Shown piece after piece: positions 500 through 34,430 of a DNA stretch of 34,430 nucleotides. The stretch lies in assembly GCA_030640255.1 (NCBI GenBank), contig DAOWJS010000028.1, forward strand, positions 1 through 34,430, written 5' to 3'. The notes under the pieces are model-generated. The model did no database searches, was not told the origin of the DNA, and worked only from the letters and a program-made list of their open reading frames with translations. Source of the DNA: Dehalococcoidales bacterium. Lineage in GTDB: Bacteria > Chloroflexota > Dehalococcoidia > Dehalococcoidales > GCA-2688105. Numbering within the stretch: position 1 is the first letter of the stretch; each line of letters begins with the position of its first letter. Position numbers and translations under genes: made by a program.

Positions 500-3400
500 G
501 CTGGCTCCTTTCCCCGGTAGTCGGGCAGGGGTTGAGCGCTATAAATTTGGCTTCCGTTGGCAAGTGCCTCTACCGCAGCTCGAGCCGTATCCAGGGAGGT
601 AAAGCAGGAAACACGCCTCTCGGCAGCCGACCGACGGATTTGGAAACCATCTCTTAGCGGGACACGATCTCCGGTAACGGTATTGACGACGCCGTTTACT
701 GTTCCATCATTAATGATGTCAATAACATTGGGATGCCCCTCGCTCAATTTTTTGCTAATCATTTTTACCGGGAGTCCCGCCGCCTCAATCATAGCTGCTG
801 TGCCTTCGGTGGCATAGAGTTTGTAGCCTATTGAGGCGAACCTTCTGATTATAGGTAGCGCTTCGGGCTTATCTCGGTCAGCAATACTGAAAAGTATGGC
901 ACCTTGAGGCAGTAGCATTAGTCCCGCAGCTAGAAGTGCCTTGGCTAAGGCAGCATCAAAGGTGTAATCAATCCCCATTACCTCTCCGGTGGACTTCATT
1001 TCCGGACCAAGGTAGGTATCAACGCCAAGTAGTTTTGACATAGAGAAAACCGGGGCTTTAATGGCTACCAGTTCTTGCTTGGGCCACAGTCCGGTGTGGT
1101 AGCCCTGCTCCTTGAGGCTTTTACCCAGCATAACCTTGGTGGCCACTTTTACCATAGGTATACCGGTAACCTTGGAGAGAAAGGGGACGGTGCGGCTGGC
1201 CCTGGGGTTAACCTCTAATACATAGACCGAAGGCTCAGAACCGGGAGGTACTGATTCTGGATGAGGCATAATGACGAACTGGATGTTCATCAAGCCTTTA
1301 ATTTTGAGTGCCAGTCCCATCCTGATAGTATAGTCAACAATAGTTTCTACCTCTGGCTCGGTTAGATTTATCCCGGGATAGACGGCCATAGAGTCTCCAC
1401 TGTGGACTCCTGCCCGTTCAATATGCTCCATTATCCCGGGAATGAGAACACTCTCCCCGTCACCTATGGCGTCAACCTCTACCTCTTTTCCTTGCAGGTA
1501 TTTGTCAATAAGCACCGGGTGCTTGGTATCCAGTTCTATGGCTAGCTTCATATAGCGGACTAGCTCGCCGGCATTGTGAACTATTTCCATAGCTCTGCCG
1601 CCGAGGACATAGCTGGGGCGAACCAATACTGGATAACCGATAAGCTGAGCTACCTTGAGGGCTTCATCTACCGAGGTTACCCCGGCTCCCGGTGGTTGAG
1701 GAATGCCCAGCTCGTTGAGGAAGTTCTCAAATCGGCGCCTGTCCTCAGCCAGGTCAATAGCCTCAGCGCTGGAGCCGAGGAGAGGCATCCCGCTGCGAAA
1801 TAGGGGCTCAGCCAGGTTTATCGCCGTCTGACCTCCAAATTGGACTATAGACGGCGAGGGGGCATTGTCCGGTTGCCCGCTTTCATTTTCCAGGATGTCA
1901 CGCAGGCTTTCCTCATCCAGGGGTTCAAAGTAGAGGCGGTCACTGGTATCAAAATCGGTGGACACCGTTTCCGGGTTGGAGTTGACCATTATACTCTTGA
2001 AGCCAGACTCCTGCAGTGCCCAGGAAGAATGAACGCTACAGTAGTCAAATTCAATACCCTGCCCAATGCGGATAGGTCCGCTACCGATGACTATCGCCTT
2101 GTTTCCTTCAAGAGGCTCAGCCTCATTCTCCTGGTCGTAGGTGCTGTAGAAGTAAGGGGTGCCGGCGTCAAACTCAGCAGCACAGGTATCCACCATCTTG
2201 TAAACGGGACGGATTTGCCACTTGTGCCGCAACTCCCTTACCTGCTCGGTGAGTCTATCAGCCAGGGTTCCAATCTGCTCGTCAGAGAAGCCGAGCCGTT
2301 TTGCCCGCCGTAGAAGCTCTGGGGTCAGCGGCTTAGACAGGAGCCTCTTTTCCATATTAACAATGTTCTGGAGCTTATCCATAAACCACAGGTCAATCTT
2401 GGTGTGGTTGGATAGCTCTTGGGCAGTGAGCCCTCTTCTCAGGGCGGCCATTAGCGCCCATAATCTCAGGTCGTTAGGTTCCAGAAGGTAGGCATTGATA
2501 TCTGTTCCCATCTCCCAGGTGCGGTCTTCCCACAGTAGCGACCGGTTGCTAAACTCAAGGGAGCGAATCGCCTTCTGCAGAGCGGCTTCAAAACAGCGGT
2601 CAATAGCCATTACCTCGCCGGTGGCTTTCATCTGGGTGCCGATAACCCGGTCACCGGAGGCAAACTTATCAAACGGCCAGCGAGGAATCTTGACCACCAG
2701 GTAGTCCAGTGCTGGCTCGAAGGCAGCCATGGTTTTCCCGGTTATCTGGTTGGGGATTTCATCCAGCCTTTTGCCGACGGCTATCTTCGCCGCCACGCGG
2801 GCAATGGGATACCCGGTAGCCTTACTGGCTAGGGCGGAGCTTCGGCTGACCCTGGGGTTTACTTCAATCACATAATAATCATTGCTGTTAGGGTCGAGGG
2901 CGAACTGGATATTACAGCCGCCTTCAACTCCCAGGGCACGAATAATCTTGAGGCTGGCTGTCCGCAACATCTGGTGCTCTTTATTAGTCAGAGTCTGGCT
3001 GGGAGCCACCACGATGCTGTCGCCGGTATGAACCCCCATCGGGTCAATATTCTCCATATTGCAAACGGTGATGCAGTTATCGGCCCCGTCGCGCATTATC
3101 TCATACTCAATCTCTTTCCAGCCAATTACCGATTCTTCCAGCAGTATCTGGTGAATGGGACTGGCTGCCAATCCTACGGTTGCCGCATGGTCCAGCTCCT
3201 CCCAGGTATTGGCTACCCCGCCCCCAGTCCCCCCCAGGGTGTAAGCGGGGCGGATTATCAGGGGCAGACCTAAGTCCTTGGCTACCTTGGCGGCTTCTTT
3301 TAAGCTGGTTACGGTGGCGCTCTTCGGCACCGGCTCGCCGATATTGATTAGCATCTGCTTGAATAACTCGCGGTCTTCCGCCATTCTTATGGTTTGTATC

Positions 3401-3750
3401 GGTGTTCCCAGGCTTTTCATATTATATTTGTCTAAAACGCCGGCATCGGCTAAGTCCACCGCTAGATTAAGCCCGGTCTGACCACCGAGGGTGGGCAGTA
3501 GCCCATCGGGACGCTCCCGCTCAATAATGCGGGCGACCATTTCCACGGTGAGCGGCTCAATATAGATAATGTCGGCGATACCCTCATCGGTCATAATGGT
3601 TGCCGGGTTGGAGTTGACCAGCACCGAGGTTACCCCCTCCTCCCGCATCGCCTTGCACGCCTGGGTGCCGGCGTAGTCAAACTCCGCCGCCTGCCCGATA
3701 ACAATCGGCCCCGACCCAATAATTAATACTTTAGATGGTTTCTTGGTCAA
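496..3750 (-). CDS. carB: carbamoyl-phosphate synthase large subunit
   Basis: 1084-aa ORF with duplicated ATP-grasp halves ([21 protein letters not shown] and [19 protein letters not shown]) and an MGS-like C-terminal domain. TTG start at 3750 is preceded by AAGGAG 8 nt upstream. Lies downstream of carA. Confidence 0.97.
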
Positions 3751-4400
3751 GATGTGTGCTCCTTATAAAAGAAATGCGACCAGATGAGAATATCTAATAA
3801 GCGAAGAAGGGAAACGTCATACATATATTCATATTTAGTTGAAATAATCTGCTGTATCTTAGTTAATTCATCTTTGTTTGCATCTATATCTTTTTTTAGT
3901 TCGGAAATACACTTGATAGCCCAATCAGACTCGCTAGTCCATTTCTGGTCTATTATGATGGCTTTGCAGTAATCTATTTCCAATATACTATCAAGAATTG
4001 GTATTACATTTGGTAATTTCTTGTGCAGTATTTTTGTCTTTCTAGCAAGACTCAAATATTTTGTGTCGAATGCTTGTATTAATTCACCAATTTTACCCCA
4101 CGGTATCTTTTCAAAATCGTCAGAGATTTTTGTGTTGTAAGGAATTTTAGAGAGACAGGAGTTTATCTTATTTATTTTTTCAAGGAGCGGTTTAATTACA
4201 AGTGATTCATCATAATAAGGAATTCTAGCACCAAGACTATTACTGGCATCTATAGCCATAAGTATTTGTGCCTTGTTTAAGAAGCTGTTTGTAGGTAGTC
4301 TCATACTGTCATAATATCGGGCTCCGCTTTCCCTGTTCCAGTAATATTCAATTTTCTCAATAGGATTTGAAATCTGGATGTTATTTCTTAGTTTAATCAT
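3747..4400 (-). CDS. hypothetical protein, AT-rich orphan gene (possibly DUF6308-like)
   Basis: 217-aa ORF with a strong SD (AAGGAGGTGA) 5 nt upstream of ATG 4400. Its stop overlaps the carB TTG start (TTGA). By eye it is about one-third G+C, against about half in the flanks. The motifs [17 protein letters not shown] and [11 protein letters not shown] recall my memory of the DUF6308 family; this is not verified. Confidence 0.7.
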
Positions 4401-4420
4401 TACTTCACCTCCTTACCTTC

Positions 4421-4900
4421 ATCTTGTTCTACCTCACCCCCTTTGTCCCCCTCTCCTTCAAAGGAGAGGGGGAGGTTGGGTGTGGAGAGGGGCTTCGCCC
4501 CTCTCAGACTCCCCGTATTAAGTTCTGCCTCACTCGGACTCCCCTTAATCATATCTAGATGTTTCGTCCCTCTCAGGCTCTCCCCACATTCAAGCTTGGG
4601 AGGATTATCCTCTCGGACTCCCCGTATTTTGTTCCGTACCTTTAGGTTCTCCTAAATACTAAGGGTTCAACCCTCTCGGACTCCCCTTATTCAATTTTGT
4701 CTATCTCCCTCCACTCAGGTGGGTTATAGAGAGGTTCAACCTCCCTTTTTAACCATCTCCTTACCCATCAGGAGAGTTTTAGAGAGGCGAAGCCTCTCTT
4801 TTTACATCTTCCCCTTCCCCTTACCCAATCCCCAAGGGGAAGGGGATAAAGGGGATGGGGTTACCACTAAACAGGGGCGAAGCCCCCTAAAACTCCCTGT
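4421..4900. repeat. intergenic hairpin-repeat cluster A (cap, P1, P2, five CTCGGACTCCCC-tailed units, P3 and GGGGATGGGGTTACC)
   Basis: Cap (reverse complement) 4427-4443. P1 palindrome 4447-4472 (CCCCCTCTCCTT..AAGGAGAGGGGG). P2 4485-4505 (GAGAGGGGC-TTC-GCCCCTCTC). Tails end at 4514, 4544, 4585, 4623 and 4686. Hairpins at 4600-4612, 4662-4674, 4731-4743, 4781-4799 and 4874-4886. P3 arms at 4811-4822 and 4834-4845. Track ORFs in this stretch are low-complexity artefacts. Confidence 0.85.
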
Positions 4901-4902
4901 AT

Positions 4903-6000: not shown

Positions 6001-6007
6001 ATTAGGC

Positions 6008-6333
6008 TTTATCTACCTCACCCCCTTAGGTTTTTATTAGGTAACCCTATCCCCTTTAGTCACTTGATTTGGTGACCCTCCCCCTTTTGTCCCCCTCCCT
6101 TGTTAAGGGAGGGGGAAATTGGTTGTGTGAGAGGGGCGGTGCCCCTCTCTGACTCCCCTTCGAGCTTCCCCGTTAACGGGGGAAGATTTTCTCTGAAGAG
6201 GGGCTTTGCCCCTCTTAAACCCCCCTTCACTATTTTCTTCTTCAAAGGAGAGGGGAGGTATGGGTTTCGGGGGAGCTTCGCCCCTCCAAGCTTCCCCTCA
6301 GAAAATAAATTCCTTATAGAGGCTTTGCCTCTC
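6008..6333. repeat. intergenic hairpin-repeat cluster B (same family and same order as cluster A)
   Basis: Cap (rc) 6008-6028. GGTAACCCTATCCCCTTTAG 6040-6059. P1 6091-6115. P2 6129-6149 with tail TGACTCCCC 6150-6158. Further GC hairpins at 6165-6185, 6196-6216, 6269-6287 (degenerate) and 6318-6332. The stretch 6091-6158 aligns almost base for base with 4447-4514. Confidence 0.85.
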
Positions 6334-6335
6334 CT

Positions 6336-7669: not shown

Positions 7670-7673
<4 letters not shown>
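6336..7673 (-). CDS. pyrC: dihydroorotase
   Basis: 445-aa ORF with the amidohydrolase metal motif DLHCHLRQPG and the later ATDHAPH. Its start overlaps the pyrB stop as ATGA. Confidence 0.95.
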
Positions 7674-9765
<2,092 letters not shown>

Positions 9766-14527: not shown

Positions 14528-14538
14528 TCAAGGGTAGA

Positions 14539-14623
14539 TTGAAGGGGCGAAGCCCCTTCAAAACCCATCCTTCCCCCTCTCCTTTGAAGGAGAGGGGGAT
14601 AAAGGGGGTGAGGTAGATAAAAC
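14539..14623 (+). repeat. hairpin-repeat unit C (P2 - P1 - cap)
   Basis: TTGAAGGGGC-GAA-GCCCCTTCAA at 14539-14561. CCCCCTCTCCTT-TG-AAGGAGAGGGGG at 14573-14598. ATAAAGGGGGTGAGGTAGATAAAAC at 14599-14623. It is collinear with 19641-19727 and with the reverse complement of 4427-4514. Confidence 0.85.
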
Positions 14624-14638
14624 ATTCCTCAATAACTA

Positions 14639-14667
14639 TTGACATTTTACACGGAAGCGTGTATAAT
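14639..14667 (+). promoter_or_regulatory. consensus sigma70-type promoter of mutL (near-leaderless)
   Basis: Perfect TTGACA (14639-14644), a 17-nt spacer, then TATAAT (14662-14667). ATG 14676 follows after 8 nt with no SD. Confidence 0.65.
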
Positions 14668-14675
14668 TAACTATT

Positions 14676-16932: not shown

Positions 16933-17355
16933 TTATCAAAGCTACTTTCTTTCTAGGCTTGGCATCAAATTATAACCTATCTGGCTCTATTCTTCCAGTT
17001 TGGCTTTCTGATTGGCGTAAGCATTTTATATAGAAGATTTGCAGGATTAAATGTAGTAATATGTATGTGCTAACTGAAGCGTCGTTTTTCCGTTATAATA
17101 GTAGAGTGTACTGGAGGCTTTACCTTTTCGGAAAGTTCAAAGGGGTATCCGAGGATTGATTAATGTGTTGTTTTGTGTTAAAATTATTCCCAATTTTGTT
17201 ATCGTGTTAGAAGAAGGCAAGCTTAGAAAGAGAACCAGGAAGGTAAAGTGAGACAGATGCTCTTTGTATTATTTAGAAAGGCAGGTGATGTGATGGAGTA
17301 GGTAGTTAGGCATAGGACTGATGGGAGATACTCGTAAAAAAGGCAGGAGGTAACT

Positions 17356-17697
17356 ATGCGCAGGATATTTAAGGTATTAGGAGTGATGGCTATTATTCCT
17401 TTATTATGCGTGGCAATAGTAGCCTGTGTCCCTACTATCCCTCTAACTCTGGAGGTAACTTCACCCACTGAGGGAGCAGAGCTTACCGTGACTCCGGTAA
17501 CGGTAGGGGGTAGTGTGTCTGATGTTGAGGCCGAGGTGACAATCAATGAGGTGGCAGTAACTGTGGCTGAGGATGGTATATTCTCTGGCGAGGTTGAGCT
17601 TACTGAAGGCGAAAACACTATTACAGTTGTCGCCACACTGGGTGAGGAAATAGTAACCCAGACAGTAACTGTTACCTATGCCCTGCCGGCTGAATAG
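17356..17697 (+). CDS. small lipoprotein with a bacterial Ig-like fold
   Basis: 113-aa ORF. The RBS GGAGGT lies 5 nt upstream. The signal peptide has the lipobox IVAC. The rest is a Thr/Val/Glu-rich beta-strand pattern. A strong terminator follows the gene. Confidence 0.7.
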   Translation: MRRIFKVLGVMAIIPLLCVAIVACVPTIPLTLEVTSPTEGAELTVTPVTVGGSVSDVEAEVTINEVAVTVAEDGIFSGEVELTEGENTITVVATLGEEIVTQTVTVTYALPAE

Positions 17698-19615: not shown

Positions 19616-19640
19616 TTAGTGAGGTCATTTATCAGGGAAG

Positions 19641-19727
19641 TTTGAAGGGGTGAAACCCCTTCAAAACCTATACGTCCCTTCTCCCTTGAAGAAGAGGGGA
19701 AGTAAGGAGGTGAGGTTGATAAATAAA
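19641..19727 (+). repeat. hairpin-repeat unit D (P2 - degenerate P1 - cap)
   Basis: TTTGAAGGGGT-GAA-ACCCCTTCAAA at 19641-19665. A degenerate P1 at 19676-19702. TAAGGAGGTGAGGTTGATAAATAAA at 19703-19727. The architecture matches unit C. Confidence 0.8.
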
Positions 19728-19743
19728 CCCTTAATTTATAGAA

Positions 19744-20244
19744 ATGTGCGAAACTAACATCGAACTATTTAAGGAGGTTCTAGTGAAGAGAACTTTTTTG
19801 ATAGGTATGGTATTAATTCTGATGCTCTTCCTGTTGCCTTCCTGCGCTGCTGGAGTATCTCAGGAAGAGTATGACAGGGTAACTAGCGACCTTGCTGTAG
19901 CTCAGACCCAAATTCAATCATTGGAAGGTGATTTGACCGAAGCAGAAGCACAAATTCAGTCCTTACAGACCGACAAAGAGGTCTCAGAGGAAAAGCGTGC
20001 GGAAGCATTGGCTTATGCCGAGTTCGTCGATGTGCTTCTGTGGCCAGCTTGGAAGAAAGCTGGGATTACTCCCCGCTTCGCATTTGAAGATGAGGTTGAC
20101 TGGCTGGTAGAGCTAAAGAACAGAGCCAGTGACCTAGGAGATACAAAATTAAGTAACTATATTAAGGGATTGGATGAAGCCGCCACATTAGTTGCTCTAT
20201 ATGATTATTGCCTTGGAAGGATAGTAGAGAAAACCCTAAAGTGA
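19744..20244 (+). CDS. hypothetical coiled-coil lipoprotein or secreted protein
   Basis: The likely true start is GTG 19783, which has AAGGAGG 6 nt upstream. The signal peptide ends LLPSC. There is a short coiled-coil repeat (AQTQIQSLEGDL / AEAQIQSLQTD). The gene is inserted between ribE and ribBA. Confidence 0.65.
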   Translation: MCETNIELFKEVLVKRTFLIGMVLILMLFLLPSCAAGVSQEEYDRVTSDLAVAQTQIQSLEGDLTEAEAQIQSLQTDKEVSEEKRAEALAYAEFVDVLLWPAWKKAGITPRFAFEDEVDWLVELKNRASDLGDTKLSNYIKGLDEAATLVALYDYCLGRIVEKTLK

Positions 20245-20293
20245 ACGGATTATCAATTGGGTTTCGCCCATCCCTAAATTCATTCTGTTTTCC

Positions 20294-21526
20294 ATGGAGG
20301 GAGGAATAAGCATGGGGCTGTCAACCATTCCTGAGGCTATTGAGGACTTAAAGGCAGGCAAGTTTGTTATTATAGTTGATGATGAGGATAGAGAGAACGA
20401 AGGTGACTTGGCACTAGCTGCCGAGAAGGTTACCCCTGAGGCTATTAACTTCATGACACTGAAGGCCAGGGGACTAGTGTGCTTGCCTATAATCGGCAAG
20501 CGATTAGACGAACTGGTGATTCCTTTAATGGTGCCGGATAATTCCACCAAGTTTTGCACCGCCTTTACCGTCTCTGTTGAAGCTAAACACGGGGTAAGCA
20601 CCGGTATTTCGGCAGCGGATAGAGCCCACACCATAAAAACGGTAATTGACCCGGCTACTAGAGCCGAGGATTTAGTTCGACCCGGGCATGTGTTTCCGCT
20701 ACGAGCCAGGGAGGGTGGTGTCTTGGTGCGGGCGGGACATACCGAGGCGGTAGTTGATTTAGCCAAGCTGGCTGGTCTCTATCCTGCCGGCGTTATCTGT
20801 GAGGTTATGAATGAGGATGGCTCTATGGCACGGCTACCTCAGCTTGGAGTAATGGCCGAGAAGTATGGGATTAAGATTATAAGTGTGACCGACCTCATTG
20901 CTTATCGCTGCCGCCATGAGAAGCTGGTGCACCAGGTGGCTAAGGCTAAGTTACCAACCAAATACGGTCGGTTTACGGCTCTTGCCTATAAAAGTGATAT
21001 AGACCCTGATGAACAATTAGCCTTAGTAATGGGTGATGTATCCGCTGAGGAGCCGGTGTTAGTCCGAGTCCACAGTGAATGTGTTACCGGTGATGTATTT
21101 GGTAGCCTTCGCTGTGATTGTGGTGAGCAGATTGCTCTAGCCATGCAAGCCATTGCTGATGAAGGGCGAGGTGTTTTCCTGTATATGAGACAGGAGGGAC
21201 GAGGTATTGGTTTTCATAATAAGATTCGTGCCTATGCTCTTCAAGACCAGGGATTGGACACCGTGGAGGCTAATCTGCGCTTAGGATTTGCTCCTGACCT
21301 GCGGGATTATGGTATAGGTGCTCAAATCCTGGCTGATCTGGGTTTACACGAGATTCGATTGCTCACCAACAATCCGAAAAAGGTGATAGGTTTGGAAGGT
21401 TACGGGCTGAAGGTGGTGGAGACGATACCCATAATCACCACTCCTACCCCGTATAACCGTGACTACTTGGAGGCAAAACAAGAAAAATTAGGTCATCTTT
21501 TAGAAATAAAAAAGGTTACTGAATAG
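20294..21526 (+). CDS. ribBA: bifunctional 3,4-dihydroxy-2-butanone-4-phosphate synthase / GTP cyclohydrolase II
   Basis: The DHBP synthase motif is VDDEDRENEGDL. The GCH-II motif is HSECVTGDVFGSLRCDCG. The likely true start is ATG 20312 (MGLSTIPEAI), downstream of GGAGGGAGG. Confidence 0.95.
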   Translation: MEGGISMGLSTIPEAIEDLKAGKFVIIVDDEDRENEGDLALAAEKVTPEAINFMTLKARGLVCLPIIGKRLDELVIPLMVPDNSTKFCTAFTVSVEAKHGVSTGISAADRAHTIKTVIDPATRAEDLVRPGHVFPLRAREGGVLVRAGHTEAVVDLAKLAGLYPAGVICEVMNEDGSMARLPQLGVMAEKYGIKIISVTDLIAYRCRHEKLVHQVAKAKLPTKYGRFTALAYKSDIDPDEQLALVMGDVSAEEPVLVRVHSECVTGDVFGSLRCDCGEQIALAMQAIADEGRGVFLYMRQEGRGIGFHNKIRAYALQDQGLDTVEANLRLGFAPDLRDYGIGAQILADLGLHEIRLLTNNPKKVIGLEGYGLKVVETIPIITTPTPYNRDYLEAKQEKLGHLLEIKKVTE

Positions 21527-22367: not shown

Positions 22368-22466
22368 TTGGGTACCTCCTTTACCTTTAATTGGGGTAAG
22401 GTTTTTCGGTTGTCCTTACGTTAGTATACGTCAACTAGTCTAAGTAAATCAATATTTAGAGGTCGT

Positions 22467-22894
22467 TTAGCAACCTATCCCCCTGACCCCCTTCCCTTAA
22501 TAAAAGATTGTTAAACAACCCCTCACCCTTTATCCCTCTCCCCTTATGAAGGGGAGAGGGAAGAGAAATTCTCAAAGGGGCTTCGCCCCTTTTAATCCCC
22601 TTTGCTAAAAACTCTTAATAAGAGGGGGAGTGTAGGTAAGAGAGGGGCTTCGCCCCTCTCTAAAATCTCTTCTTTGAAATATATAGGAAGTCTAAGCGGG
22701 GCTAACGCCCCTCTGTTTTACTCCTTCCCCCTCTCCTTTAAAGGAGGGTCAAAGGGAGGCGAAGCCTCCCTTATATAAGCTCCCCTTCCCCTTATCAAGG
22801 GGAAGGGGATAAAGTCCTTGCCTGCTTTGGCAAGGATAAAGGGGATAGGGTTACCTAATAGAAATCTAAGGGGGTGAGGTTAATAAACAATCTC
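22467..22894. repeat. intergenic hairpin-repeat cluster E (mosaic of all module types, with cap-like modules facing outward at both ends)
   Basis: Left end: rc-type modules at 22467-22491 and 22505-22535. P3 at 22534-22560. P2 copies at 22574-22592, 22639-22661, 22698-22711 and 22752-22772. Degenerate P1 at 22727-22748. P3 at 22782-22808. Inserted hairpin at 22815-22836. GATAAAGGGGATAGGGTTACC at 22835-22855. Cap at 22866-22894. Confidence 0.85.
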
Positions 22895-22906
22895 AATATT
22901 TGACCT

Positions 22907-22935
22907 TTGACATACCATTACCTGTCACCTATAAT
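22907..22935 (+). promoter_or_regulatory. consensus sigma70-type promoter abutting the cluster E cap
   Basis: Perfect TTGACA (22907-22912), a 17-nt spacer, then TATAAT (22930-22935). A second TATAAT lies at 22945-22950. The RBS GGAGGGTGA lies at 22957-22965, before TTG 22969. Confidence 0.6.
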
Positions 22936-24152: not shown

Positions 24153-24229
24153 GGGCGGTTAGCTCAGTTGGTTAGAGCGCTGCGTTGACATCGCAGAGGT
24201 CACTGGTTCAAATCCAGTATCGCCCACCA
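24153..24229 (+). tRNA. tRNA-Val(GAC): tRNA-Val (anticodon GAC), CCA encoded
   Basis: Cloverleaf read by eye. The acceptor stem is GGGCGGT/ATCGCCC. The D-arm is AGCTCAGTTGGTTAGAGC. The anticodon stem CTGCG/CGCAG encloses the loop TTGACAT. The T-arm is GGTTCAAATCC. The discriminator is A and CCA follows. Confidence 0.95.
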
Positions 24230-24522: not shown

Positions 24523-24741
24523 GTGGGTATAATGAAGTTTGCTATTACTCTTGAGCAAGACGAGGACGGATATATCGTAGCCAGTTGTCCTGCGCTTCCT
24601 GGATGTCACTCCCAAGGGAGAACCAGAGAGGAAGCCATTGTCAACATCACAGAAGCTATCCGTGGTTATATAGCTAGTATGCGTAAGCATGGGGAACCGA
24701 TCCCTGTAACCGATGTAGAACAAGTGGAGGTAGCTGTCTAG
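24523..24741 (+). CDS. hicB: HicB-family antitoxin (UPF0150 / RNase H-like fold)
   Basis: MKFAITLEQDEDGYIVASCPALPGCHSQGRTREEAIVNITEAIRGYI is a typical HicB N-terminal domain. The likely true start is ATG 24532. The stop overlaps the GTG of hicA. Confidence 0.85.
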   Translation: MGIMKFAITLEQDEDGYIVASCPALPGCHSQGRTREEAIVNITEAIRGYIASMRKHGEPIPVTDVEQVEVAV

Positions 24742-24965
24742 TGACTCGCCTCCCGCTAATATCGGGAGACGACTTCGTTAAAGCGGTGCACAAGATTGGC
24801 TATGTTTGGGACCATACCGAAGGTAGCCATATGATCTTGCTACACCCTTTGGGGTGAAGATTGTCAGTGCCTAGACATAAAGAGCTGGGGCGAGGCTTAT
24901 TGAGGTCTCTAATTAGGGATGCCGGGCTGAGCAGGGAGGAATTCGTCAGATTACTGCATGAGTAA
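24741..24965 (+). pseudogene. hicA: hicA toxin gene interrupted by an in-frame TGA (codon 39)
   Basis: Manual translation gives VTRLPLISGDDFVKAVHKIGYVWDHTEGSHMILLHPLG*RLSVPRHKELGRGLLRSLIRDAGLSREEFVRLLHE. The stop TGA is at 24855-24857, in the same frame on both sides. The sequence is HicA-like across its full length. Confidence 0.75.
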
Positions 24966-34171: not shown

Positions 34172-34176
34172 TCTAA

Positions 34177-34390
34177 GAGATTGTTTAACCCTATCCCCTG
34201 TATCCCCTTCCCCTTATCAAGGGGAAGGGGAGATAATTTCTTTAGAGGGGCTACGCCCCTCTAAAACTCTCCCATTATTGCTCCAGAGTAAGGAGAGTTA
34301 AAGAGAGGCTTCGCCTCTCTTATATAACTAATTCCCCTTCCCCTTATCAAGGGGGAAGGGGATAAAGGGGATGGGGTTACCAAATAAAAA
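34177..34390. repeat. intergenic hairpin-repeat cluster F (two P3-bearing units with imperfect inverted ends)
   Basis: Left end GAGATTGTTTAACCCTATCCCCTGTAT at 34177-34203. P3 at 34204-34230. P2 at 34242-34264. AGAGAGGC-TTC-GCCTCTCT at 34302-34320. P3 at 34334-34361. ATAAAGGGGATGGGGTTACC at 34362-34381. Confidence 0.85.
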
Positions 34391-34430
34391 TGAGAGAAAT
34401 AGAAGCTAGCGCCATTACTCAAGTTGTATC

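What the first reader, a model, noticed from the sequence alone, without database searches (positions are those of the whole stretch)
14539..14623. Type copy of a conserved ~85-nt three-module repeat unit (P2 hairpin, P1 hairpin, GGGGGTGAGGT cap) with four collinear copies in this window
The copy at 14539-14623 reads TTGAAGGGGC-GAA-GCCCCTTCAA / AACCCATCCTT / CCCCCTCTCCTT-TG-AAGGAGAGGGGG / ATAAA / GGGGGTGAGGTAGATAAA. The reverse complement of 4427-4514 reads GGGGAGTCT GAGAGGGGC-GAA-GCCCCTCTC / CACACCCAACCT / CCCCCTCTCCTTTGAAGGAGAGGGGG / ACAAA / GGGGGTGAGGTAGAA. The same order and spacing recur at 19641-19727 and, reverse-complemented, at 6071-6158 with its cap at 6008-6028. The 26-nt P1 palindrome is identical between 14573-14598 and rc(4447-4472). 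The copies lie in unrelated loci (pyr operon twice, pcrA/mutL spacer, rib operon). They overlap no credible CDS. They are not tRNA-like, have no CRISPR periodicity and lack the U tract of intrinsic terminators. I cannot assign them to a named repeat family (they are REP/BIME-like in style only).
Basis: seen in the sequence. Interest (0 to 1): 0.75.

Follow-up and report, generated by a model that had tools for sequence, protein, structure and literature searches.

The report
Mobile hairpin repeat of Dehalococcoidales genomes
The flagged 85-base repeat is one copy of a small, non-coding "jumping" DNA element (a MITE) that litters the spaces between genes in a whole order of uncultured Dehalococcoidales bacteria; this is a new family of a well-known kind of element.

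Summary
The P2 hairpin / P1 hairpin / GGGGGTGAGGT-cap unit sits at all four stated places and cannot be chance. It is also under-counted: a covariance model finds 8 full-length units plus fragments, in six hairpin arrays covering about 5% of the window.

The window comes from a Dehalococcoidales MAG. The same unit, with a nearly unchanged consensus, occurs in more than 40 Dehalococcoidales/Dehalococcoidia species genomes and in one phage contig.

The unit is the core of a miniature inverted-repeat transposable element:
- The cap is part of a terminal inverted repeat (GAGATTGTTTATCAA ... TTGATAAACAATCTC).
- Complete copies are flanked by 8-9 bp target-site duplications.
- Close relatives have clean empty sites at the pcrA-mutL spacer and between two divergent promoters, and lack the unit-containing insertion in the rib operon.
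- One element is nested inside another within the window.

No matching transposase was found in the 1.16 Mb I could examine. No Rfam family and no paper describes the repeat.

Side effects on hosts are visible. Insertions land just upstream of promoters. The cap mimics a Shine-Dalgarno sequence and lies at Shine-Dalgarno distance from the start codon of some genes, and it supplies a -35-like hexamer upstream of uvrB-like genes.

Verdict: a real, new member of a known kind, of moderate interest.

The parts
14528..14630 (+). Type copy: a ~103-nt insertion between the pcrA stop codon and the mutL promoter. P2 hairpin 14539-14561, P1 hairpin 14573-14598, cap 14602-14621, degenerate right end 14615-14630. 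The left inverted repeat is truncated (starts TCAAGGG).
   Evidence: Sequence. Covariance-model hit of 101.9 bits. Absent from the closest relatives L115/L116/L117/L118, where TAA is followed by 3 nt and then TTGACA. DNA fold z-score -6.1.
14639..14667 (+). mutL promoter (TTGACA-17-TATAAT, 12/12) lying 17 nt downstream of the cap. It pre-dates the insertion. It carries a conserved TACACG-N4-CGTGTA palindrome between its hexamers.
4401..4902 (-). 502-nt hairpin array between carA and a DUF6308 ORF. It is bounded by outward-facing units 4417-4511 (-, cap 4424-4443) and 4774-4875 (+). Between them lie decayed GGGGAGTCYGAGAGG half-units.
   Evidence: (92.0 and 62.5 bits).
6001..6335 (-). 335-nt array between pyrC and carA. 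It holds unit 6061-6155 (-), a weaker unit 6198-6294 (-), and cap 6008-6027 ending 7 nt before the carA ATG. Extra GGGGATAGGGTTACC-type modules sit between P1 and the cap.
   Evidence: Orthologous arrays of different length occur in L116/L086, L064 and L122.
19617..19730 (+). Unit with both short inverted repeats (GAGGTCATTTATCA 19621-19634; TGATAAATAAACC 19717-19729) and cap 19704-19723. It forms the left part of a ~690-nt insertion (19617-20306), which also carries a 166-aa ORF, at the ribE/ribBA junction.
   Evidence: (78.6 bits). The site is empty in L115, L131 and L122. L127 and L098 have a 30-nt mini-element at the same TTAATT site.
22459..22894 (.). 436-nt composite element with outward-facing ends (GAGGTCGTTTAGCAACC ... 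GGTTAATAAACAATCTC). It is inserted between two back-to-back divergent -35 boxes.
   Evidence: L127 and L098 have the uninterrupted site.
22451..22458 (.). Left copy of the target-site duplication, AATATTTA. The right copy, AATATTTG, is at 22895-22902.
   Evidence: The empty sites in L127 and L098 hold a single copy.
22505..22614 (-). 110-nt unit nested in the loop of a hairpin of the outer element. It is flanked by TTAATAAA (22497-22504) and TTAATAAG (22615-22622).
   Evidence: sequence. (79.1 bits, 22504-22599 on the - strand). The left junction (to the L115 contig end) is also present in L115. Fold.
22907..22935 (+). Promoter (12/12) starting 12 nt after the element end. The divergent partner promoter lies at 22452-22423 (-), and its -35 box overlaps the left target duplication.
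34177..34391 (.). ~215-nt palindromic element made of units 34174-34269 (-) and 34295-34391 (+). It lies upstream of the MFS transporter gene promoter. Its right end is atypical.
   Evidence: I4: 59-nt arms; 78.3 and 81.8 bits.

Best explanation

Architecture. A complete short element is about 110 nt. It reads: left inverted repeat GAGATTGTTTATCA, then AGGGAAG, the P2 hairpin, a 10-12 nt spacer, the P1 hairpin, AT(A/T), and the cap AAGGGGGTGAGGT. The cap runs into the right inverted repeat TGATAAACAATCTC. Longer forms are palindromic (cap-P1-P2-P1-cap, about 155 nt) or are nested and rearranged arrays of 200-500 nt.

Mobilisation. I infer that a transposase supplied in trans, which I did not find, makes staggered cuts at AT-rich 8-9 bp targets. 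These targets are often the region just upstream of a -35 box or next to a start codon. The cuts leave target-site duplications.

What is shown: inverted-repeat ends, duplications, empty orthologous sites, nesting, order-wide distribution, and presence in a phage contig.

What is inferred: the transposase class, and the reading that the hairpins are maintained at the DNA level.

Secondary effects on the host. The cap is an almost perfect Shine-Dalgarno mimic (AAGGRGGTGA plus a 10-nt tail). It lies at Shine-Dalgarno distance where an ATG follows directly. Its TTGATA/TAGATA hexamer can act as a -35 box. About a sixth of P2 hairpins carry a T tail like an intrinsic terminator.
For: 1. Repeat family. 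The cap occurs in more than 113 stretches, almost all from Dehalococcoidales/Dehalococcoidia MAGs. Unit architecture is conserved across species. The model finds 199 hits at E <= 1e-6 in 677 kb of these loci, 8 full-length units over 60 bits in the window, and 16 strong hits in 340 kb of mutL-anchored loci.

2. Terminal inverted repeats. These show in the alignments and end listings. In the 19617 copy the ends pair with each other when folded.

3. Target-site duplications: L129 AATATTTA 8/8; window AATATTTA/AATATTTG; L067 TAGAAAT; L081 TATGGTCAA 9/9; L080 TATTCCTCG 9/9. Five of 21 end pairs match at 75% or better in register. Shuffled pairings give a mean of 0.54 and a maximum of 4 in 1000.

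4. Filled versus empty orthologous sites. The pcrA-mutL spacer is empty in four relatives with 89-94% MutL identity. The divergent-promoter site is empty in L127 and L098, each holding one copy of the target. Two further pairs are L060/L058 and L126/L156 versus L120. The rib junction is empty in L115, L131 and L122.

5. A nested insertion with its own 8-bp duplication lies inside the window.

6. P2 stems covary: 5 of 7 pairs show double changes. G-U and A-C pairs are about equally common, which suggests a double-strand (DNA) palindrome rather than an RNA on one strand.

7. Nothing in Rfam reaches threshold, and no paper describes the family.
Against: No autonomous element or transposase with matching ends was found in 1.16 Mb of related loci.

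Many copies, including the type copy, lack a clean duplication or a full left repeat.

Apparent duplication lengths range from 6 to 9 bp.

The internal P1 hairpin and the cap are conserved across a whole order. In one orthologous comparison they are far more conserved than synonymous sites: 97.5% against 84-85%. A purely selfish, neutrally decaying MITE does not predict this. A second comparison showed no such excess: 94.8% against 90-93%.

In tandem gene pairs the cap points to the downstream gene in 43 cases and away in 13. That hints at selection or a strand-specific mechanism.
Confidence: 0.8

Rival explanations
1. A REP/BIME-type or 'TIR-repeat' family mobilised as single-stranded hairpins by an IS200/IS605-like tyrosine (HUH) transposase (RAYT or TIRYT). 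This is what the first reader suspected.
For: The arrays consist of GC-rich palindromes in alternating orientation and look like BIMEs. Hairpin stems are kept by compensatory change. The cap contains GGGGTGAG. That fits the GGGGWSAS motif reported for inverted repeats flanking TIRYT genes (PMC3733652). The orientation bias in tandem gene pairs could reflect a strand-specific single-strand mechanism.
Against: Real 8-9 bp target-site duplications, verified against empty sites, are not made by HUH Y1 transposases (established knowledge of IS200/IS605). The hairpins carry no GTAG or CGTC tag; GTAG in the cap is variable (TAG, TTG or TTA). phmmer with IS200 TnpA found nothing among 4124 ORFs from the loci. 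ORFs flanked by caps are housekeeping or accessory genes, none obviously a transposase. The GGGGWSAS match is an 8-mer and could be chance.
Confidence: 0.07
2. Primarily a host cis-acting element (terminator/insulator, mRNA stabiliser, ribosome-binding or protein-binding module) kept by selection. On this reading, mobility is incidental or occurs through recombination.
For: The consensus is nearly unchanged across more than 40 species. The carA-upstream units are 97.5% identical between lineages whose third codon positions are 84-85% identical. 81 of 105 caps face a downstream gene start, at a median of 65 nt. The -35 boxes cluster 13-20 nt after the cap. The cap lies at Shine-Dalgarno distance from the start codon of a purE-like gene in L060, of genes in L010, L016 and L026, and of a phage gene. 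It supplies a -35-like hexamer upstream of uvrB-like genes. 13 of 75 P2 hairpins have a T tail.
Against: Close relatives do well without the element at the same promoters, and the mutL promoter pre-dates the insertion. G-U and A-C pairs are equally frequent, so there is no strand-specific RNA signal. T-tailed P2 hairpins are not enriched behind co-oriented genes: 9/44 against 4/31. In-window copies have no U tract in the sense direction. A second orthologous comparison shows no excess conservation. Array content at one site differs freely between lineages.
Confidence: 0.1

Closest known systems
Bacterial MITEs with structured interiors, such as Correia/NEMIS (Neisseria), ERIC/IRU (Enterobacteria), RUP (S. 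pneumoniae) and Nezha (cyanobacteria)
   Same: Small (about 100-450 nt) and non-coding. Terminal inverted repeats and target-site duplications. Intergenic, multi-copy, and present or absent between relatives. Able to fold into strong hairpins. Ends can contribute promoter or ribosome-binding signals to neighbouring genes (list and properties as summarised in PMC3733652; the rest from my own knowledge).
   Different: No sequence similarity was tested or expected. The 8-9 bp duplications differ from the TA of Correia elements. The interior is built from two or more very G/C-rich perfect hairpins (GCGAAGC-type loops) and is highly modular and nested. The family is spread over a whole order with an almost fixed consensus rather than one genus. 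The cognate insertion sequence is unknown.
BOX elements of Streptococcus pneumoniae (modular boxA-boxB-boxC)
   Same: Modular repeats with a variable number of internal modules. Located upstream of genes, and reported to influence expression (my own knowledge).
   Different: BOX elements lack clear terminal inverted repeats and target duplications. Here both are present.
REP/BIME and REPIN-RAYT systems; TIR repeats of TIRYT genes (Di Nocera et al. 2013, PMC3733652)
   Same: Clusters of extragenic palindromes in alternating orientation. Stems are kept by compensatory change. The cap contains a GGGGWSAS-type motif.
   Different: There is no GTAG or CGTC tag on the hairpins. Target-site duplications are present. 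No RAYT or TIRYT gene was found. The units are longer and have defined inverted-repeat ends.
Insertion sequences that create hybrid promoters (for example the IS6 family, 8-bp duplications; PMC7986276)
   Same: 8-bp duplications. The element end carries a -35-like hexamer (TTGATA) that pairs with a flanking -10 box upstream of uvrB-like genes. From memory, the TIR core TTGTT..AA loosely resembles IS26 and IS903 ends.
   Different: The element has no transposase gene. tblastn with Tnp26 found nothing in the loci. The TIR resemblance is recalled from memory and is weak.

Membership tests
[quoted passage not shown] | Short (under about 500 bp) with no coding capacity | tested here: met
   Units are 95-115 nt and composites 150-440 nt. 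They lie between ORFs.
[quoted passage not shown] | Terminal inverted repeats | tested here: met
   GAGATTGTTTATCAA / TTGATAAACAATCTC, extending to about 27 nt imperfect when both ends are cap-type. The type copy itself has a truncated left end.
[quoted passage not shown] | Target-site duplication flanking the element | tested here: met
   8-9 bp duplications in several copies; 5 of 21 against 0.54 expected. Confirmed against empty sites and in a nested copy. Many copies are unclear or degraded.
[quoted passage not shown] | Multi-copy, dispersed, and present or absent between related genomes | tested here: met
   copies; empty sites.
[quoted passage not shown] | An autonomous insertion sequence with matching ends that supplies the transposase | tested here: inconclusive
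   None found in 1.16 Mb of loci.
REP/BIME (RAYT-mobilised) | 20-40 nt palindrome tagged at one end by GTAG (or CGTC) | tested here: not met
   P1 and P2 have no such tag. GTAG occurs only in some caps and varies with TTGA and TTAA. Definition taken from PMC3733652.
REP/BIME (RAYT-mobilised) | Insertion without target duplication; associated RAYT gene flanked by the repeats | tested here: not met
   Duplications are present. There is no IS200-like hit. However, distant RAYTs could escape phmmer, and whole genomes were not searched.
Intrinsic (Rho-independent) terminator | GC-rich hairpin followed directly by a U tract on the transcribed strand | tested here: not met
   In-window units have no T tract in the sense direction; T tracts appear only on the antisense strand of the pyr arrays. 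Across loci, 13 of 75 P2 hairpins have a T tail.
Any curated Rfam RNA family | Score at or above the family's gathering threshold | tested here: not met
   Only a tRNA passes in the window. The best sub-threshold hit in the arrays is 26.8 bits against a gathering score of 74.2.
CRISPR array | Identical direct repeats at regular spacing, separated by unique spacers | tested here: not met
   The repeat families show irregular spacing and mixed orientation.

The most novel reading that the evidence does not exclude
The family may be more than junk. It could be an order-wide, partly domesticated 'portable expression module'. One end carries a ready-made ribosome-binding site (AAGGRGGTGA plus a 10-nt spacer) and a -35-like hexamer. 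Its hairpins would insulate neighbouring transcription units. It would be kept by selection, since it is conserved well above the synonymous rate at carA. Phages would carry it between species, since two units sit between structural genes of a phage contig, and one has its cap at Shine-Dalgarno distance from a phage gene.
Probability: 0.2. Interest if true: 0.6.

Novelty: new member of a known kind. Interest (0 to 1): 0.4.

Why it matters
Dehalococcoidales are abundant, mostly uncultured subsurface and sediment bacteria with small genomes. A repeat that fills about 5% of this window has three practical and biological consequences.

1. Assembly and binning. The repeat breaks metagenome assemblies: the sister scaffold has an N-gap exactly at one copy. 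It can also confuse gene callers, because the cap contains GTG and Shine-Dalgarno-like strings.

2. Population marker. Insertion polymorphism offers a ready marker for strain-level population genetics.

3. Gene expression. Insertions land within about 20 nt of -35 boxes or next to start codons. They can split divergent promoters by more than 400 bp. The family is therefore a likely source of regulatory variation in organisms that cannot yet be manipulated genetically.

Identifying its transposase would define an active mobile system for this lineage.

Tried and rejected
- Rfam at gathering score and at a permissive E-value: no family matched.
- Literature searches on Dehalococcoid/Chloroflexi combined with REP, MITE or palindrome: nothing specific.
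- Using the ENA sister scaffold L001 as an empty site for the rib copy: it has an N-gap there.
- Searching for an autonomous element. I looked for pairs of long or short inverted repeats 600-4000 nt apart. These yielded only ordinary genes, such as a transglutaminase-like ORF and regulators.
- tblastn with IS26 Tnp26 and phmmer with IS200 TnpA (both sequences recalled from memory) against all loci: no hits.
- Listing ORFs flanked by caps on both sides: only housekeeping or accessory genes.
- Terminator hypothesis: T-tailed P2 hairpins are a minority and are not enriched behind co-oriented genes.
- RNA-structure hypothesis: G-U and A-C pairs are equally frequent.
- General test of excess conservation across orthologous pairs: only 3 usable pairs, because BLAST alignments break at elements. 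Two detailed comparisons gave conflicting answers.
- A viral-contig scan intended to find an insertion sequence: it returned one phage contig carrying units and no transposase.
- Integron attC and CRISPR readings: rejected on sequence layout alone.

Full report
**1. The observation**

In the type copy, P2 (TTGAAGGGGC-GAA-GCCCCTTCAA) is at 14539-14561. P1 (CCCCCTCTCCTT-TG-AAGGAGAGGGGG) is at 14573-14598. The cap AAGGGGGTGAGGTAGATAAA is at 14602-14621. The 26-nt P1 palindrome is identical to the reverse complement of 4447-4472.

Chance is excluded. The degenerate cap pattern hits 5 times against 0.00 expected, and the P2 core hits 14 times against 1.19 expected. The units fold as single strands with z-scores of -4.9 to -6.1. 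All copies lie between ORFs.

**2. Context**

The window carries the following genes:
- a pyr operon (pyrR, a pyrB-pyrI fusion, pyrC, carA, a DUF6308 ORF, carB);
- pcrA and mutL;
- a rib operon;
- a tRNA and other genes.

An ENA metagenome scaffold is 99.8% identical and has an N-gap exactly at one repeat.

The hairpins are far more extensive than four units. There are six arrays: 4401-4902, 6001-6335, 14528-14630, 19617-19730, 22459-22894 and 34177-34391. Together they total about 1.7 kb, or 5% of the window. A covariance model built from 48 units finds 8 full-length units above 60 bits plus many fragments. Arrays in divergent intergenic regions are bounded by outward-facing caps.

**3. Distribution**

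Nearly all came from Dehalococcoidales or Dehalococcoidia MAGs. Upstream of the cap, the P2-spacer-P1 architecture recurs with an almost fixed consensus. The model gives 199 hits at E <= 1e-6 in 677 kb of these loci. It gives 16 strong hits in 340 kb of loci chosen only because they encode MutL.

P2 stems covary, with 5 of 7 pairs showing double changes. P1 is nearly invariant, although my regular expression selected for it. G-U and A-C pairs are about equally frequent, so no single RNA strand appears to be under selection.

**4. What the unit is**

*Inverted-repeat ends.* Beyond the flagged span the copies share ends that are inverted repeats of each other: GAGATTGTTTATCAA on the left and TTGATAAACAATCTC on the right. 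The right repeat is the tail of the cap. When both ends are cap-type, the imperfect inverted repeat extends to about 27 nt. A common form is a 150-160 nt palindrome, cap-P1-P2-P1-cap.

*Target-site duplications.* Complete copies are flanked by direct repeats of 8-9 bp:
- AATATTTA in L129 (8/8);
- AATATTTA/AATATTTG in the window (22451-22458 and 22895-22902);
- TAGAAAT in L067;
- TATGGTCAA in L081 (9/9);
- TATTCCTCG in L080 (9/9).

In-register matches are ten-fold above shuffled pairings: 5 of 21 against a mean of 0.54 and a maximum of 4 in 1000.

*Empty sites.* Orthologous empty sites show that these are true duplications.
- L127 and L098 hold a single AATATTTG (AATACTTA in L098) in the 12-nt gap between two back-to-back -35 boxes. 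The window has a 436-nt element there and L129 a 227-nt one.
- The pcrA-mutL spacer of the four closest relatives (89-94% MutL identity) is TAA, 3 nt, then TTGACA. The window has the 103-nt type copy at that position.
- The ribE/ribBA junction is empty in L115, L131 and L122. L127 and L098 hold a 30-nt mini-element. The window holds a unit plus a 166-aa ORF.

*Nesting.* Inside the window, a 110-nt unit (22505-22614) sits in the loop of a hairpin belonging to the larger element. It is flanked by TTAATAAA and TTAATAAG.

These features define a MITE.

**5. What I could not show**

I found no transposase. There are no inverted-repeat pairs 0.6-4 kb apart enclosing a transposase. There is no IS26-like or IS200-like protein among the loci. 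The ORFs bracketed by caps show no transposase.

The transposase class (DDE, staggered cut) is therefore inferred from the duplications alone. The type copy has a truncated left end and no clean duplication, showing at most AATAA/AGTAA.

**6. Relation to genes**

*Orientation.* Of 105 caps with a scorable neighbour, 81 face the start of a co-oriented downstream ORF, at a median distance of 65 nt. The other 24 abut the end of an opposite-strand ORF. Divergent regions are uninformative by construction, since there a cap always faces a gene start. In tandem gene pairs the split is 43 to 13.

*Promoters.* Promoter-like sites follow 49 of 119 caps, and their -35 boxes cluster 13-20 nt after the cap end. 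The two 12/12 consensus promoters in the window (14639-14667 and 22907-22935) are examples. The mutL promoter exists unchanged in relatives without the element, so the element landed next to it rather than creating it.

*Cap as Shine-Dalgarno mimic.* The first 10 nt of the cap (AAGGRGGTGA) match the canonical Shine-Dalgarno sequence, apart from one G-U wobble in most copies. An ATG follows within 0-10 nt of the cap end in several cases, which puts the cap at the position of a ribosome-binding site. These cases are L010, L016, L026, a purE-like gene in L060 (whose empty-site relative L058 has AAGGAAGG instead) and a phage gene in L167.

*Cap as -35 box.* Upstream of uvrB-like genes in L033, L071 and L078, the cap hexamer TAGATA lies 17 nt upstream of TATACT.

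*Terminators.* Only 13 of 75 P2 hairpins have a T tail, and these are not enriched behind co-oriented genes. In the pyr arrays, terminator-like hairpins appear only on the antisense strand.

**7. Selection or selfishness**

The carA-upstream units are 97.5% identical (154/158) between the window and L116, whereas third codon positions of carA and pyrC are 84-85% identical. This indicates constraint or homogenisation by gene conversion.

The element at 22459-22554 compared with L115 is 94.8% identical, against 90-93% at third positions. That is not a clear excess.

At the carA site, different lineages carry different module combinations. I therefore treat host function as a secondary, partial overlay.

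**8. Comparison with known families**

The closest known kinds are structured bacterial MITEs (Correia/NEMIS, ERIC, RUP, Nezha) and the modular BOX elements.

REP/BIME-RAYT systems share the look of palindrome clusters. They fail on two tested defining features: the hairpins lack a GTAG or CGTC tag, and target duplications are present. The criteria come from PMC3733652.

That paper also reports a GGGGWSAS motif in inverted repeats flanking RAYT-like TIRYT genes. The cap's GGGGTGAG fits this motif. I regard the match as a lead that the duplications argue against.

Nothing in Rfam or in the searchable literature describes this family.

**9. Phage link**

An IMG/VR contig encoding a major head protein (phrog_212) and a virion structural protein carries two units between its genes (97 and 47 bits). 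One of them has its cap 7 nt before a start codon. Phage carriage is a possible route for the order-wide spread. This is an inference.

**10. Verdict**

The repeat is real, much more abundant than reported, and best explained as a new MITE family of Dehalococcoidales (confidence 0.8). It is a new member of a known kind and of moderate interest. The open points are the missing transposase, the polarity of the cap towards genes, and the unusually strong conservation at some sites.

Noticed in passing
window 14639-14675, and the orthologous mutL loci L115-L165: The mutL promoter TTGACA-17-TATAAT contains a 16-nt palindrome, TACACG-N4-CGTGTA, between its -35 and -10 boxes. The palindrome is conserved in most of the ~45 orthologous loci listed (roughly 35; lost in several divergent ones), across 64-97% MutL identity. 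The ATG lies only 7-12 nt after the -10 box, so the transcript is leaderless or nearly so. This looks like an operator for an unknown repressor of mismatch repair.
   Followed up: partly
window 3747-4400 (-); L086 6736-7644: A 217-aa DUF6308 ORF sits between carA and carB inside the pyr operon, preceded by the 502-nt hairpin array. In the 91%-identical relative L086/L116, the same slot holds an unrelated 302-aa ORF on the other strand. This is a variable accessory-gene slot inside a housekeeping operon.
   Followed up: partly
window 19744-20244 (real start probably the GTG at 19784): A 166-aa ORF with a signal-peptide or lipoprotein-like N-terminus and no Pfam or NCBIfam match lies between ribE and ribBA, together with the repeat unit. 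Every relative examined lacks this ORF.
   Followed up: partly
L020 3152-3263, L057 446-614, L122 about 900-1010: A second repeat family shares the same terminal motif (GAGGYTGTTTAG...CTAAACGGTCTC) but has a different interior: a long GTCATTGCGAGGAGCG...CGCTCGCAATGAC palindrome. This suggests that one transposase serves several non-autonomous families.
   Followed up: no
L167 (IMG/VR UViG_3300032731_001537) 2168-2254 and 3374-3467: Two units lie between structural genes of a phage contig (major head protein, virion structural protein). The cap of the first ends 7 nt before the ATG of the next gene.
   Followed up: partly
window 7670-9091 (-): PyrB is 473 aa. It is an aspartate carbamoyltransferase catalytic chain fused to a PyrI_C metal-binding domain of the regulatory chain.
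   Followed up: no
window 14587-14613 and other units: The 3' arm of P1 and the cap together form a near-homopurine mirror repeat, GGAGAGGGGG-ATAAA-GGGGGTGAGG. This is the sequence type that can form intramolecular triplex (H-DNA). The related module GGGGAAGGGGATAAAGGGGATGGGG (for example 34352-34377) is a canonical four-run G-quadruplex motif.
   Followed up: no
window 17319-17679 versus L001 12800-13160: The 99.8%-identical sister scaffold carries an extra ~410-470 nt tandem duplication inside the Glucodextran_B-like secreted-protein ORF upstream of ribD. In L115 the same interval holds a 360-nt hairpin array instead.
   Followed up: no
window about 24530-24900: A small HicB-like antitoxin ORF (MKFAITLEQDEDGYIVASCPALPGCHSQG...) is followed by a short HicA-like ORF, downstream of the tRNA at 24153-24226. 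I read this from the sequence only and did not test it.
   Followed up: no
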